This document shows, one piece after another, positions 47,701-56,700 of a stretch of 64,000 nucleotides of DNA. Origin of the DNA: the human T2T-CHM13v2.0 reference genome, Homo sapiens. Under the pieces are notes generated by a model, which saw only the letters and a list, made by a program, of their open reading frames with translations, ran no database searches and had not been told where the DNA came from. Position 1 is the first letter of the stretch; each line of letters begins with the position of its first letter. A program made the position numbers and the translations under genes. The stretch lies in NCBI RefSeq assembly GCF_009914755.1, contig NC_060926.1; one strand, given 5' to 3'.

Positions 47701-50700
47701 TCAATTATATTTTGAAAGAGCCAAAAAAAATTTTTTTTGTTGTTTTTGTTTTTTTGGAGACAAAAGTCTCACTCTCGCTCAGGCTAGAGTGCAGTGGTGC
47801 GATCTTGGCTCACTGCAACCTCTGCCTCCTAAGTTCAAGCGATTCTCGTGCCTCAACCTCCCAAGTAGCTGGCACTACAGGCACGAGCCACCACCCCCGG
47901 CTAATTGTTTGCTTTTTTTGGTAGAGACCGGGTTTCACCACGTTGGCCAGTTTGGTCTCGAACTCCTGAGCTCAAGTAATGTGCGTACCTTGGCCTCCCA
48001 AGATGCTAGGATTACAGGCATGAGCCACTGCGCCTCGCCCAAAAATGTTATTTTAACTCTTTCAGTTTAAAGAATGAAAATGAAATTCTGTTAGCACTCC
48101 TGTTCTGGTTAAGAGCTGGTGATCAGAAAGGAGGTCATGGACTTCCATCTCCTCATGTCCTGCTCTTCCTCTGCCCAAGTCATGAGACAAGTGAATTATC
48201 TCTGAAAAGACAGACCTCAGGAAGAATTAAGTTAGACTTCTCAGTGGCACTTAGAAGTTGGCATTTACCTTCCTAGATTTCATCAACCTACTCTTCCATT
48301 CTATAGAAACAGTACCTGAATTATATTCATTCTGTTGCTTGAATTTCAGCAGCAAAATCCTCTGGCACCTTTGTGGCCTCCAAATATTGCTTCAAAGGCA
48401 TCAGTATAGCTTCAGGTCCTAGAGAAAGAGACCCTTTGTTCCTGGGCCTGTTTCCTAAAACAAAGTACCTCAGAGCCGGGAACAGACTGATGTGATTAGA
48501 TAGTGACTTCCTGGTATTGGAAATGGTGCCAGTTACTGTATTCAGGTGCATTTTACTCACCCATGCTTTTTCTTCTTTCTCTGTTTCCTCTTCCTGATTC
48601 CAGGCCTCGTTTAGGAACAGTCATGCACCGGGTGATCGGACTGGGGCTTCTATACTTAATCTTTGCAGCTGTTGAAGGCGTGATGAGAGTCATTGGGGTA
48701 AAAACTACATTATTCTACCACCCCTTTTTGTTATTGCTGTGAAATGTGGTTTTACTTTGTATCTCCTGAGATGAATTTTTAGATAGAAACTTGTGAAAAA
48801 GGCCCAATTTGAACTTTTCTTCTATGGGATGTTTCCCTTTTAAAATACTTCCTGAAAGGCAAAGGCTAGACAGAGTGCTTCTTAAAATGATATGACTGAT
48901 TGCGAAGGCACCGCTTGATATCATCCCAGGTATCAGTCCCATCCCAGAAAGGTTCATGGTTGTTCTTCATAGAGAACATTTGTCTTTATCATTATGCAGC
49001 TGGTATACCTTAATATCATTCTTAACCCTGGATTTTAAAATGTATCAAGTGAACAGAAAGTTAATTACACCCTTCAGGTATACATACAGTACATTCCATC
49101 ACTCTTTTAAGTCTCATTTGTTTATTCATTTTCTCTGACTCTTGGGGACTAGCTATTTTGAGGATTCAGTAGACCCCACCATTGGAAAAGCCTAGAGGAA
49201 GTGATGTTCAAGGGGAAGATGACTCTGGATGTGGGCAGCAGCACTTTATTCTCTAGAGAAGTATCAGTATTTATGTCTGCAAAGACCCCTAGATTTCTAG
49301 CTTCAGTTTTTTTACTTTTATTTTGTGCGGTTTTTTGTTTGGTTGTCTCATTGGTTGATTGGTTGGTTGGTTGGTTGGTTGGTTGGTTGGTTGGTTGGTT
49401 GGTTTTGGAGACAGGGTCTTGCTCTGTTGCCTAGGCTGGGGTGCAGTGGTGCAGTGGCGCAGTGGCATGATCATGGCTCACTGCAGCCTCCATCTCCTAG
49501 ACTTAAGCAGTCCTCCCACCTCAGCCTCCCGAGTAGCTGGGACTACAGGTGCAGGCCACCACACCAGACTAATTTTTGTATTTTTTGTAGAGACAGGGTC
49601 TCACTATGTTGCCCAAGCTGGTCTTGAGTTCCTGGCTGGCCTCAAGTGATCCTCTTACCTCAGCCTCCCTAAGTATTGGGATTACAGATATGAGCTACCA
49701 CTCATGGTTGCTTCAGTTTTTTGAATAAATGGTTGAGGATTGAGTGATTAAGAAGCTTATTATATCTTACCTAATCCAAAGACCTTTGTCATTTTACCTA
49801 AAATGTCTTTGGATTAGCTGTATAAATCAGATCATAAATATTTATCCAATAGTGCTAAAAAGCCTCATTCTTCTCCCTGTTGTCTTTGATACACCTGCAT
49901 TCTGTGTTAGATGCTCTTTTAGTCTTTGAGTATATTTATTTCCACGTTTGTATGATCATGAAGAACTCTGCATTCATATAATAATAATAATAAATACTTG
50001 CCAGAAGGAAATAGAAAAGATAAATATCCCACATGTAAATACACCATATATATTGTATTCCTTTAAAATTGTACATAGCTTTGTGGCACACGCCTGTAAT
50101 CCTAGCTACTTGGGAGGCTGAGGCAGGAGAATGGCTTGAACCTGGGAGGCAGAGGTTGCAGTGAGCTGAGATTGCGCCATTGCACTCCAGCCTGGGCAAC
50201 AAGAGCAAAACTCCATCTCAAAAAAAAAAAAAAAATTTTACATAGCCAACATCTTAGATAGTGACTTTTAAAGGTGACTAGTCAGAGTAAATGTCTAACA
50301 TGGATCCCCCCCTTCACTTTTTCTGTGTCCCTTCACAACACAGTCAGGAAAGATCGGGAGTTCGTTTCATTAATAGCCCTGGCTGTCGGTTTGGTATGGA
50401 GGAGAGAGATTGAAATGGCTGGTGTTAGTGAGGTTGGGGACACGATGCTTTTTATTTGCCATTACATAATACAGTTTTATGTTGCTATCATCACATAAAT
50501 TAGCACTTGTTGCTATCAAAAACAGGTCATTTCCATGTGCTTAAACACAATCCTCTTAGGAAATTAAATCTTTTATGTGGCTTTGTAAAGTAATGAGATA
50601 AGCTAAATTATTTTTCTTCATCAAATGATAATTGCTATAGTGCAATGAAAGTGTTACATTCAGGTTTCTTCCCTTATTTTTATCTTTCAGGGTTCTAACC

Positions 50701-53700: not shown

Positions 53701-56700
53701 CAGGGAATAGTCAAAGAAATCTAAAATGTGAAAGATCTTTAGTGTTTCATGGTGAGACAAAGGAAGTCTAGTGTCTATTTCTGCATGAGCCTGAATTTGT
53801 GAAGTTTGCTGTCAGATTGCTCTTTGGTAATTTTTATCACTAAAATGAAATGTCTGCTTTTTCTATACAGAAAGATAGCAGATTTCCTAAATGATATAAA
53901 TGACAAGAAAAAAAAAAGCAGAACTAAATACGTATACAATTGAGTGCTTTGGAAAATGACCCTGCTTCCTTTGATTTTGATGAACTTAATATAACCAATC
54001 CTCTAAGAATCTAATTCTAAAGTCATAGGAAAAAAAATAGGCTGAAAAATTCAAAAGCCATAGCCTTAGCCTTTCTCCTGTGGCCCTTCCTCCCCTTTTT
54101 TTCTTCTTGTTTCTCTTTCGTTTCTCTTTTCTTTTCTTTCTTTCTTTTTTTTTTTTTTTTTTTTTTTTTTTTTTTTTTTTTTTTTTTGCTGTTTTGCTGC
54201 AGGTGAGTGATTCTGATCTTGTTCTTCTGGCCAGCCTCCCCCTCTCTCTCCTTGACTCTGGCTTGTGCTGGTGGATATCCTTTTCCTACCACAGCAGCGC
54301 GCTCTCACTTCAGGATCAGAAGGGCTATTTGTTTTCATGACTACTTTCCTTCCATGGCAGGAATGATTTACACTTTACCTAAATTTAACAGTGTCTTGGT
54401 AAGTGGAGGCTTAGGCAATTTCAAATTTACTTTTTATTCCTTAGCTTAAAAACATTTTTTTAAAATTATTAAACCAGACCAGATTTTTTTTTAATCCTAG
54501 AAATTTGGTTTTAGTCAAGAATTGTTAAAAGTATATGTTTTGATGTATTTAAGGAATAAAGTATATTTGCATTTTTAAAGTTCTCATAGTAACCTGAATT
54601 GGTTGTATTGTATTGCTTTAGAAATTGATCTTTTGTAATTTGTTGGTCATTTAGAAGATTAAAAAGCAGTTTTGTACTAAAGTACTAAAGTAGCTTTAGT
54701 ACTAAAATGAAGTTTTTTATTAATGACATATTTAAAATTTTTAAAACTTGCCACATCCATTCTGTTGCTCAGCTCTGTTATTTTTAGTGTTTGGTTCATA
54801 AACAAAGCTTGTTGGTCTGCTCCAGAGGAAGGAATTCTCATTTAAGAGCAGAGAGAGCTGGCTTGAATTCTGCTTCACTGCTGAGGAGTCAGTGGAAAAG
54901 TCTTCTTTTTGCTTCTTCATCCTTGGCAATGTTGAACTTCACCTGAGCCCTGTGCTCCTGGAAAACAGCCAAGATTAAGACACCCCCCTCCAAACCCCCT
55001 TCCCTATTTGTGTTCCGAGAAAAGACTTACCTCAGAGAACCCCCTTCCCCACTGGACTTAGGTAAGACTCCTGGAGGCCCGCTTGTCTACCTATGACAAG
55101 GCCGGGCACAGACCCTCTGAGTTCCCATTCCTTGCATCACGAATAATTAGATGAACTCTTTATATCCACTGATCGATCTGAACAAAACACTGAACCAAAC
55201 TGTAAGTATTCTTCTTCCTCCAGGCCATAAACGTTGACTCACCGTCAGCCTGAGCCAATACACAGCCCTCCCGAGAATCTGCAGACCTCAGGAAAAGACA
55301 TTCCCTCATCGGTGTGTCTAGTCCCACCACTCACTCCCCACACCTACTGCTTTTTATCCTTGTTTGCTGTGCTCTATAAAAGAAAAACCCTTTTCTGCCT
55401 GACCTCTGAGACTCTTGCAGATCTTATAGTCGTAGTATTCTTCCTATTGCAGTAATCCTCCCCCGTTGCAGTCATCTTTCAAATAAAGCCCTTAACTAAG
55501 TCCAGATTTGTTTCATCTGATGAATTTTAGTTTTAAAATTTATAAAATGGAATTGGTAGATGACCTAACCTCTTAATTATGGTTATTCAAATAATAAAAT
55601 GAGAATAGACTGGAAAGATCAAAATAAGATAGAAATAGGGCCAGAAAAGCACAAGCCAAATGGCATGTCACAATGTGATCTGTAAAGAGTGTCTCACTTA
55701 GAGGGGTTTTAGTGCGTGCACTGCTCTATCCCGTGTTGCGGGTGCATGGCATTGGTGGAACGCATCATGGGTCTTCCGTGTTTTTTCCTTGGAGTTTGTT
55801 TTCTTAGTTCAGACAATGGTAAATTGTAAAAGAAAATCTGTGATAAAGTATAATGATTGTACAATATTGGCCAAGATAACATTTTCTGTGTTTTCATTAG
55901 CTTCAAATTTTAGGAACTGTATTTAGCAGTACTGACTTTGGGAACATAGTAGAAGATTCTGTTTTTTTTTTTTAACCTCTTATTATTACTTGGAATGTTT
56001 TTCCTTAACTTTTTTCACATTTTTATTAGTTTGGCACAAACTATGAAGACCCTAAGGCTAAGAAAGAACACTGTGAAATTTTCATTATATAGACATTTTA
56101 AAAATACTCTGATCTTTGCTGTGCTGGGTAAGCTATTTAATTTTTCTTACAGTAAATTATCTTAGTATTGTTATATTCCTTCAAAGGTGACTTTTTGTGT
56201 GTTTCAGCTTCTATAGTGTTTATGGGGTGGACAACTAAGACATTTAGAATTGCAAAATGCCAATCAGTAAGTATAACCTTCCTATTTAAACAGTTATTTT
56301 TATTTATACTATTTTGTAGAATTTTGAACAATTTAGTTTATGCTTGCAAATAGAGGTGATTTTAATGGAGATTTATGTTTTTACTTTGAACTATTTTTTA
56401 CAGAGTTATAAAAACTTTTGGCTGGGCGCGGTGGCTCACGCCTGTAATCTCAGCACTCTGGGAGGCCGAGGCAGGCGGATCACGAGGTCAGGAGATCGAG
56501 ACCATCCTGGCTAACACAGTGAAACCCCGTCTCTACTAAAAATACAAAAAATTAGCGGGTGCCTGTAGTCCCAGCTACTGGGGAGGCTGAGGCAGGAGAC
56601 TGGTGTGAACCCAGGAGGTGGAGCTTGCAGTGAGCTGAGATTGCACCACTGCACCCCAGCCTGGGCAACACAGCGAGACTCCATCTCAAAAAAAAAAAAA

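What the first reader, a model, noticed from the sequence alone, without database searches (positions are those of the whole stretch)
50691..56018. Tandem mutually exclusive exon pair (11a/11b) enforced by U2/U12 spliceosome incompatibility, swapping a TM helix of TMEM87B
Seen: two exons of exactly 72 nt, both phase 0-0. Each has a U2-type pyrimidine tract and AG upstream and the U12 donor ATATCCTTT downstream (50763 and 54275). I found only one U12 branch/acceptor downstream (TCCTTAAC at 56002, AC at 56017-18). The peptides align without gaps: 11a [24 protein letters not shown] versus 11b [24 protein letters not shown] (7/24 identical, including DS..W). Both join exon 10 (..RVIG) and exon 12 (IFISL..) in frame. 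Established: an intron with a U12 5' site and a U2 3' site (here 50763-54202) is not spliced by either machine, which is the mechanism behind the mutually exclusive exons of the JNK genes (MAPK8/9/10). Inference: the two isoforms differ in the luminal loop and most of predicted TM5; 11a has an intramembrane Asp-Asp pair, 11b has Pro and Cys. From memory, 11b resembles the canonical TMEM87A segment (..DLASLAFIPLAFLDTALCWW|IFISL), so the duplication may predate the A/B split. The reference TMEM87B protein I recall uses 11a. TMEM87 genes may already be listed among hybrid-intron genes, so novelty needs a literature check.
Basis: partly seen in the sequence, partly recalled or inferred. Interest (0 to 1): 0.9.

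Follow-up and report, generated by a model that had tools for sequence, protein, structure and literature searches.

The report
TMEM87B U12-linked mutually exclusive exons
Two look-alike 72-base exons of the human TMEM87B gene are wired so that exactly one enters the mRNA, because each is flanked by splice signals read by two different splicing machines; the arrangement is real and very old, but it has already been published and annotated.

Summary
Exons 50691-50762 (11a) and 54203-54274 (11b) are each 72 nt and phase 0-0. Each follows a pyrimidine tract plus AG and is followed by ATATCCTTT. Only one U12 branch site/acceptor serves exon 12 (TCCTTAAC at 56002, AC at 56017-18).

The interpretation (JNK-type mutual exclusion through U2/U12 incompatibility, swapping TM5) is supported but not new. 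Olthof 2019 (PMC6717393) showed it in mouse Tmem87b by RNA-seq and RT-PCR. A 2021 review (PMC8329584) lists TMEM87a/b beside MAPK8/9. RefSeq annotates exon 54203-54274.

- Human TMEM87A on chr15 has the same layout.
- 11b matches residues 356-377 of solved TMEM87A structures; 11a gives no hit.
- That segment holds the TM5 residues that bind phosphatidylethanolamine at the TM5-TM6 side opening (PMC11239671).
- The b-type is the family-wide form. The a-type was found only in vertebrates, including lamprey, hagfish and sharks.
- The "Asp-Asp pair" of 11a occurs in only 4 of 64 mammalian a-type sequences.

Verdict: real, already known, low novelty.

The parts
48604..48697 (+). Exon 10 (constitutive). 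It ends in phase 0 and has a U2-type GT donor at 48698-48699.
   Evidence: hub gene table.
50667..50690 (+). U2-type acceptor of exon 11a: pyrimidine tract (76% pyrimidines at -40..-4) and AG.
50691..50762 (+). Exon 11a (a-type), 72 nt, phase 0-0. It is used by the selected RefSeq transcript and encodes the luminal loop plus most of TM5 without the family-wide proline.
   Evidence: hub table.
50763..50771 (+). U12-type AT donor ATATCCTTT after 11a.
50763..54202 (+). 'Hybrid' interval with a U12 donor at its 5' end and a U2 acceptor at its 3' end. No U12 branch-site word lies near its 3' end, so 11a cannot be joined to 11b.
   Evidence: principle as stated in PMC8329584.
54084..54202 (+). Long pyrimidine tract (runs 54084-54108 and 54121-54187, including about 50 T; 94% pyrimidines at -100..-4) and the CAG acceptor of 11b.
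54203..54274 (+). Exon 11b (b-type), 72 nt, phase 0-0. It is annotated in other RefSeq transcripts and is the counterpart of TMEM87A residues 354-377 in solved structures.
   Evidence: hub table.
54275..54283 (+). U12-type AT donor ATATCCTTT after 11b.
56002..56018 (+). The single U12 branch site TCCTTAAC (56002-56009), with the intron ending in AC at 56017-56018, about 10 nt downstream.
56019..56127 (+). Exon 12 (constitutive), which continues TM5. It matches TMEM87A residues 378-412.

Best explanation
This is a JNK-type pair of mutually exclusive exons in TMEM87B. Exon 10 offers a U2-type GT donor. Exons 11a and 11b each offer a U2-type acceptor and a U12-type AT donor. Exon 12 offers only a U12-type branch site and AC acceptor. 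The major spliceosome can therefore join exon 10 only to 11a or to 11b. The minor spliceosome can join only 11a or 11b to exon 12. The 11a-to-11b interval (U12 donor, U2 acceptor) and the exon 10-to-12 interval (U2 donor, U12 acceptor) are substrates for neither machine. Exactly one of the two exons is therefore included, even though including both or neither would keep the frame and escape NMD. The choice swaps the luminal TM4-TM5 loop and the luminal two thirds of TM5. In the paralogue TMEM87A this helix lines the side opening between TM5 and TM6 and contacts a bound phosphatidylethanolamine. Both versions keep the Asp, Ser and Trp. 11b keeps the family-wide Pro and Cys-Trp-Trp; 11a lacks them. 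Shown here: all the signals, the frames, the homology, the paralogous layout and the conservation. Taken from the literature: exclusivity and brain-cortex preference of 11b in mouse. Inferred: that the two isoforms differ in lipid or cargo access.
For: - Signals and frames.
- Review passage (PMC8329584): TMEM87a/b are described as interlocked U2/U12 introns like MAPK8/9.
- Human TMEM87A: exon 10 with a GT donor, an upstream 72-nt exon followed by ATATCCTTT, a downstream exon followed by ATATCCTTC, and TCCTTGAC 11 nt before AC and exon 12.
- Protein catalogues: of the 120 best mammalian TMEM87B entries, 65 carry only a, 40 only b, 12 neither (fragments) and 3 both. The 3 with both are 'hypothetical protein' models that cut inside the exons.
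- Structure: 11b matches TMEM87A 356-377; TM5 D371 binds the PE phosphate and ester; C375, W376 and F379 contact its acyl chain in the TM5-TM6 gap.
Against: - No human RNA-seq or long-read data could be examined here, so exclusivity in human tissues rests on mouse data and on annotated models.
- Minor-spliceosome dependence was not tested.
- Three gene models with parts of both exons exist. They show that cryptic GT/AG sites inside the exons could in principle be used.
- A near-consensus U12 branch word with an AG 10 nt downstream lies at 55489-55505, so a second minor acceptor downstream of both exons is not formally excluded.
- A functional difference between the isoforms is untested.
Confidence: 0.9

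Rival explanations
1. Exclusivity is enforced by another mechanism (NMD of double or zero inclusion, steric hindrance, or competing RNA structures), and the U12 donors are incidental.
For: Competing RNA structures enforce other mammalian mutually exclusive pairs (titles and abstracts only, listing). RNA structure was not examined here.
Against: Double inclusion and double skipping both keep the frame, so NMD cannot police them. The exons lie 3440 nt apart, so steric hindrance between donor and branch site does not apply. The same U2/U12 signal pattern is kept in the paralogue TMEM87A.
Confidence: 0.05
2. Exon 11b is a little-used or non-functional cryptic exon inside the minor intron, and only the 11a isoform matters.
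For: The selected RefSeq transcript uses 11a (hub table). Olthof 2019 first called the embedded exon 'cryptic'.
Against: The b-type peptide is almost invariant in mammals: its opening six residues are the same in 36 of the 41 b-type sequences matched. It is the form carried by 67 of 77 family representatives outside the vertebrate clade and by the solved TMEM87A structures. It predominates in mouse cortex.
Confidence: 0.03
3. The upstream (a-type) exons of TMEM87A and TMEM87B arose by independent duplications in each paralogue, not once before the A/B split.
For: Human 11a and the human TMEM87A upstream exon share only 2 of 24 residues. Each is closer to a b-type exon, at 7 of 24.
Against: In a tree of 68 exon peptides, all 34 a-type rows fall on one side of a branch with SH-aLRT 95.8. 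These rows come from human A and B, other mammals, Xenopus, ray-finned fishes, sharks and lamprey. The tree has only 24 columns and used the quick method. Lamprey has a-type and b-type isoforms with identical flanks, and hagfish has the a-type. Fish and shark a-types bridge the two human forms.
Confidence: 0.07

Closest known systems
Mouse Tmem87b exons 11 and 11a (Olthof et al. 2019, BMC Genomics, PMC6717393; passages read)
   Same: It is the orthologous gene and the same pair. Both exons are 72 bp, no reads span both, a U12-type 5' splice site follows each, and usage depends on tissue (the embedded exon predominates in cortex).
   Different: This window is the human locus. The paper does not, in the passages I read, discuss exon homology, the TM helix encoded, or evolutionary depth.
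MAPK8/MAPK9 (JNK) exons 6a/6b (7a/7b), as described in PMC8329584, which cites Chang et al. 2007
   Same: Two U2-type 3' splice sites and two U12-type 5' splice sites are interlocked, so that one of two alternative exons is included. Choice is tissue-specific.
   Different: It is a different protein family (a kinase substrate-docking region rather than a TM helix). Nova regulates JNK. Tmem87b was not a Nova2 CLIP target according to Olthof 2019, so its regulator is unknown.
Human TMEM87A, same position (G000 chr15, loci L003/L004)
   Same: The order of signals is identical: GT donor, U2 acceptor + 72-nt exon + ATATCCTTT, U2 acceptor + exon + ATATCCTTC, then TCCTTGAC 11 nt before AC and exon 12. 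The b-type exons share 12 of 24 residues.
   Different: The downstream TMEM87A exon is 69 nt after its CAG. The solved TMEM87A structures use the b-type, whereas the selected TMEM87B transcript uses the a-type. The a-type exons of the two paralogues are highly diverged (2 of 24).

Membership tests
U2/U12-interlocked mutually exclusive exon pair (JNK type) | Two adjacent alternative exons that are homologous and interchangeable in frame | tested here: met
   Both are 72 nt and phase 0-0. They share 7 of 24 residues, with shuffle p 0.0002.
U2/U12-interlocked mutually exclusive exon pair (JNK type) | Each alternative exon is preceded by a U2-type 3' splice site | tested here: met
   Pyrimidine tracts of 76% and 89% at -40..-4, each ending in AG.
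U2/U12-interlocked mutually exclusive exon pair (JNK type) | Each alternative exon is followed by a U12-type 5' splice site | tested here: met
   ATATCCTTT at 50763 and 54275.
U2/U12-interlocked mutually exclusive exon pair (JNK type) | The upstream constitutive exon has a U2-type donor. The downstream constitutive exon has a U12 branch site close to its acceptor. | tested here: met
   GT at 48698. TCCTTAAC at 56002 with AC ending about 10 nt downstream.
U2/U12-interlocked mutually exclusive exon pair (JNK type) | No U12 acceptor in front of the downstream alternative exon | tested here: met
   The nearest one-mismatch branch-site words lie 0.75 kb and 1.9 kb upstream of 54202.
U2/U12-interlocked mutually exclusive exon pair (JNK type) | Transcripts contain one exon or the other, never both or neither | not testable with these tools
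   No RNA data are held. The mouse result is taken from PMC6717393. Of 120 catalogued mammalian proteins, 105 carry exactly one exon, 3 ab initio models carry parts of both, and 12 are fragments.
U2/U12-interlocked mutually exclusive exon pair (JNK type) | Removal of the downstream introns depends on the minor spliceosome | not testable with these tools
   This needs depletion of U11, U12 or U6atac.
TMEM87 / GOLD-domain seven-TM (GOST) proteins | Sequence membership (Lung_7-TM_R, PF06814) and correspondence to the TM5 segment of the solved structure | tested here: met
   Precomputed PF06814 and PF21901 on the hits. Exons 11b and 12 align to TMEM87A chains 8ctj, 8hsi, 8kb4 and 8htt at residues 356-377 and 378-412.

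The most novel reading that the evidence does not exclude
The a/b exon pair is a switch that arose once, at the base of vertebrates. The a-type is present in lamprey, hagfish, sharks, ray-finned fishes, frog and mammals, and in both paralogues. The switch replaces the eukaryote-wide, proline-containing TM5 with a proline-less version. Both keep the phosphatidylethanolamine-binding Asp, but the a-type changes the residues that contact the lipid tail in the TM5-TM6 side opening. The two isoforms would then differ in lipid or cargo access, or in the reported conductance, and tissues (cortex versus others) would tune TMEM87 function through the minor spliceosome. I found no paper that maps the exon swap onto the structure: the word 'isoform' is absent from PMC9711517 and refers to other isoforms in PMC11239671. 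Searches turned up no paper that dates the pair.
Probability: 0.35. Interest if true: 0.5.

Novelty: already known. Interest (0 to 1): 0.22.

Why it matters
The arrangement is one of very few cases outside the JNK genes where the two spliceosomes together enforce an 'exactly one' exon choice, so it serves as a second natural model for that logic. It is also relevant to minor-spliceosome diseases, because both isoforms need U12-type splicing. The added points may guide isoform-aware work on TMEM87A/B. These points are the vertebrate-wide age of the pair, the b-type being ancestral, and the swap falling on the lipid-contacting TM5. The solved structures and channel studies used only the b-type of TMEM87A, whereas the reference TMEM87B is a-type. 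The core finding needs no new discovery claim.

Tried and rejected
- Motif counting is not evidence on its own. ATATCCTTT (2 found, 0.88 expected) and TCCTTAAC (5 found, 2.69 expected) are not enriched beyond shuffles.
- The PDB search with 11a found nothing at E<=10.
- PTBP1 as regulator remains a lead only. The tract upstream of 11b is 94% pyrimidine with 8 TCTT in 200 nt, against 5 upstream of 11a. A CRIC-seq preprint names TMEM87B among PTBP1-looped pre-mRNAs, but the passage does not say which exon. The other three papers of one search were seen only in the listing and were not read.
- No TGCATG or GCATG motif lies within 200 nt on either side of either exon, and YCAY counts are unremarkable.
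- Ten family representatives outside the vertebrate clade lack the TM5 proline. I considered them as possible invertebrate a-types and rejected that reading: they are long, divergent rows in four separate places in the tree and lack the shared a-type motif.
- Structure prediction of the two isoforms was not attempted. The tool returns no coordinates from which a helix kink could be measured.
- PMC2941758 only lists TMEM87A among genes with a CNS-associated cassette exon.
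Full report
**Observation.**
- Exon 10 ends at 48697 and is followed by GT.
- Exon 11a (50691-50762) and exon 11b (54203-54274) are each 72 nt. Each is preceded by a pyrimidine tract and AG, and each is followed by ATATCCTTT (50763 and 54275).
- TCCTTAAC lies at 56002-56009, the intron ends in AC at 56017-18, and exon 12 begins at 56019.
- I built the coding sequence from the hub's coding parts. The frame stays open with 11a, with 11b, with both and with neither.
- The two peptides share 7 of 24 residues without gaps. Only 0.0002 of 20000 shuffles reached that BLOSUM62 score.

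Counting the motifs alone does not beat chance. ATATCCTTT occurs 2 times against 0.88 expected, and 24 of 100 shuffles reach 2. TCCTTAAC occurs 5 times against 2.69 expected. What matters is that the two donors sit exactly at the ends of two homologous annotated exons.

Between the 11a donor and the 11b acceptor, the only one-mismatch branch-site words are the donor itself and two TTCTTAAC, which lie 1.9 kb and 0.75 kb upstream of the acceptor. No U12-type acceptor therefore serves 11b.

**What it is.** The logic is the interlocked U2/U12 design.
- Exon 10 has only a U2 donor.
- Exon 12 has only a U12 acceptor.
- Each alternative exon has a U2 acceptor and a U12 donor.

Joining exon 10 to 12, or 11a to 11b, would need a hybrid intron that neither spliceosome removes. 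Double inclusion and double skipping both keep the frame, so NMD cannot be the enforcer. The 3440-nt spacing rules out steric hindrance.

**Already in print.** Two full-text searches led to Olthof et al. 2019, BMC Genomics (PMC6717393). I read passages of it with the find function. In mouse Tmem87b:
- Skipping of exon 11 is coupled to use of an embedded exon '11a'.
- Both exons are 72 bp, and no reads span the two.
- The embedded exon predominates in cortex, shown by RT-PCR with AvaI digestion.
- The embedded exon carries a U12-type 5' splice site.
- The authors compare the case with Mapk9 and note that Tmem87b was not a Nova2 CLIP target.

A 2021 Frontiers in Genetics review (PMC8329584; passages read; I recall the authors as Akinyi and Frilander, but no call showed the names) describes TMEM87a and TMEM87b beside MAPK8/9 as interlocked U2/U12 introns that give mutually exclusive exons. 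The hub's RefSeq table lists 54203-54274 as an exon of other transcripts, and the selected transcript uses 50691-50762. The core finding is therefore already known.

**The paralogue.** A search of the window's own assembly with the exon 12 peptide found one other locus, on contig 15. In the 20 kb fetched there, TMEM87A shows the same order of signals:
- an exon 10 counterpart followed by GT;
- a 72-nt open exon preceded by a pyrimidine tract and AG and followed by ATATCCTTT;
- a second exon (69 nt after its CAG) followed by ATATCCTTC;
- TCCTTGAC 11 nt before AC and exon 12.

Residue identities:

| Pair | Identical residues |
|---|---|
| b-type of TMEM87B vs b-type of TMEM87A | 12 of 24 |
| 11a vs 11b (TMEM87B) | 7 of 24 |
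| 11b (TMEM87B) vs the TMEM87A a-type | 7 of 24 |
| 11a (TMEM87B) vs the TMEM87A a-type | 2 of 24 |

**Structure.**
- The 11b peptide matches residues 356-377 of the four distinct TMEM87A chains in the PDB copy (8ctj, 8hsi, 8kb4, 8htt; E 0.004-0.009).
- The 11a peptide matches nothing at E<=10.
- Exon 12 matches residues 378-412.
- In PMC11239671 (passages), TM5 D371 coordinates the phosphate and ester oxygens of a bound phosphatidylethanolamine. C375, W376 and F379 of TM5 contact the acyl chain that protrudes through the TM5-TM6 gap.
- By the alignment, both TMEM87B exons keep the Asp and the first Trp. 11b also keeps the Pro and the Cys-Trp-Trp; 11a has Ile, Val and Trp-Phe at those places.

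Neither structural paper discusses this exon choice: 'isoform' is absent from PMC9711517 and refers to other isoforms in PMC11239671.

**Conservation in mammals.** A database search with exon 8 returned 687 proteins, of which I analysed the 120 best, nearly all mammalian TMEM87B. The results:

| Content | Proteins (of 120) |
|---|---|
| a-type only | 65 |
| b-type only | 40 |
| neither (fragments or models that miss the region) | 12 |
| parts of both | 3 |

- The 3 with both are 'hypothetical protein' models. They cut inside the exons at cryptic sites and enter exon 12 at an internal AG. They are not evidence of double inclusion.
- The b-type is nearly invariant: its opening six residues are the same in 36 of the 41 b-type sequences matched.
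- In the a-type, positions 10-11 are GD in 46, SD in 9, DD in 4, TD in 3, LD in 1 and AD in 1 of the 64 matched. The Asp-Asp pair is therefore a minority state among the mammalian sequences listed, not a conserved feature.

**Evolutionary depth.**
- A full HMMER scan of cluster representatives with a mouse b-type isoform gave 2654 hits at E<=0.001. I examined the best 150.
- I built a FastTree of 95 rows, made up of representatives plus five reference sequences. Rows had to be at least 430 residues long with at most 3 gaps in the segment, and the exon 11 columns were removed.
- In that tree every row with the shared a-type motif lies in one 18-row clade with support 100. This clade also holds all rows that I could name as vertebrate.
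- Of the 77 rows outside the clade, 67 have the proline-containing b-like segment. The other 10 lack the proline but are long, divergent rows without the a-type motif. These outside rows carry no names.
- Two further searches supplied names. One a-type representative is a shark TMEM87A-like isoform. Among its 120 best relatives, 106 are a-type and 14 b-type (the query was a-type, so this ratio is biased). Different sharks and rays are annotated with a-type or b-type isoforms, and a Xenopus TMEM87A isoform carries an a-type close to the human TMEM87A one.
- The most basal a-type representative is from a lamprey. Of the 10 lamprey and hagfish entries, 7 are a-type and 3 b-type. Petromyzon marinus isoforms of both types have identical flanks, and both hagfish entries are a-type.
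- In a tree of 68 distinct exon peptides, all 34 a-type rows fall on one side of a branch with SH-aLRT 95.8. It has 24 columns and used the quick method. I kept 8 of 31 mammalian TMEM87B a-type rows and dropped 3 artefactual rows.

I conclude that the b-type is the ancestral form. I also conclude that the a-type arose once by exon duplication before the cyclostome-gnathostome split, and hence before the A/B split. Three caveats apply: the peptide alignment is very short, gene models in invertebrates may simply omit a second exon, and no non-human genomic DNA could be inspected to confirm the U12 donors.

**Regulation.** The regulator is unknown. The 11b acceptor follows an unusually long pyrimidine tract (94% at -100..-4, including about 50 T). 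A preprint lists TMEM87B among PTBP1-looped pre-mRNAs without naming the exon. This is a lead, not a result.

**Verdict.** The feature is real, correctly read, mechanistically well supported and already published and annotated. The additions here are the paralogous layout checked in the human genome, the mapping onto lipid-contacting TM5 residues, and the vertebrate-wide age with a single origin of the a-type. They are modest extensions and depend partly on unnamed or model-derived sequences.

Noticed in passing
window 54200-54208: The 11b acceptor is followed directly by GTGAGT, so the junction reads CAG|GTGAGT. This is a full match to a U2-type donor consensus placed at an acceptor, which is the layout of a recursive splice site. 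The first codon here gives Val, whereas all 41 b-type mammalian proteins matched begin with Ala. I could not tell whether the Val codon is specific to humans, to apes or to this assembly.
   Followed up: partly
window 56019-56029: Exon 12 begins with a T-rich stretch ending in TAG, 11 nt inside the exon. This looks like a usable U2-type acceptor. Two ab initio whale gene models (P0079, P0100) enter exon 12 at the corresponding place. Use of it after a normal exon end would shift the frame.
   Followed up: partly
window 55489-55505: There is a near-consensus U12 branch word (CCCTTAAC) with an AG 10 nt downstream, inside the intron between 11b and exon 12. It could be a cryptic minor-type acceptor. 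It is not annotated.
   Followed up: no
window 26629, 34439, 46073 (+ strand): Three further matches to [AG]TATCCTT lie on the gene's strand and none on the other strand. None abuts an annotated exon.
   Followed up: no
window 54249-54256: TCCTTGAC, a U12 branch-site-like word, lies inside exon 11b, where it spans the Leu-Leu-Asp codons. It is probably a by-product of coding.
   Followed up: no
database proteins P0007, P0078, P0083, P0121, P0131, P0222 and others: Many catalogued TMEM87A/B gene models read straight through the AT-AC intron after either exon, so the peptide continues with Ile-Ser-Phe encoded by the donor. Annotation pipelines therefore often mishandle this junction.
   Followed up: partly
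window 54121-54187: A 67-nt uninterrupted pyrimidine run, including about 50 consecutive T, lies just upstream of the 11b acceptor in this assembly. It is likely to vary in length between individuals and might affect use of the acceptor.
   Followed up: no
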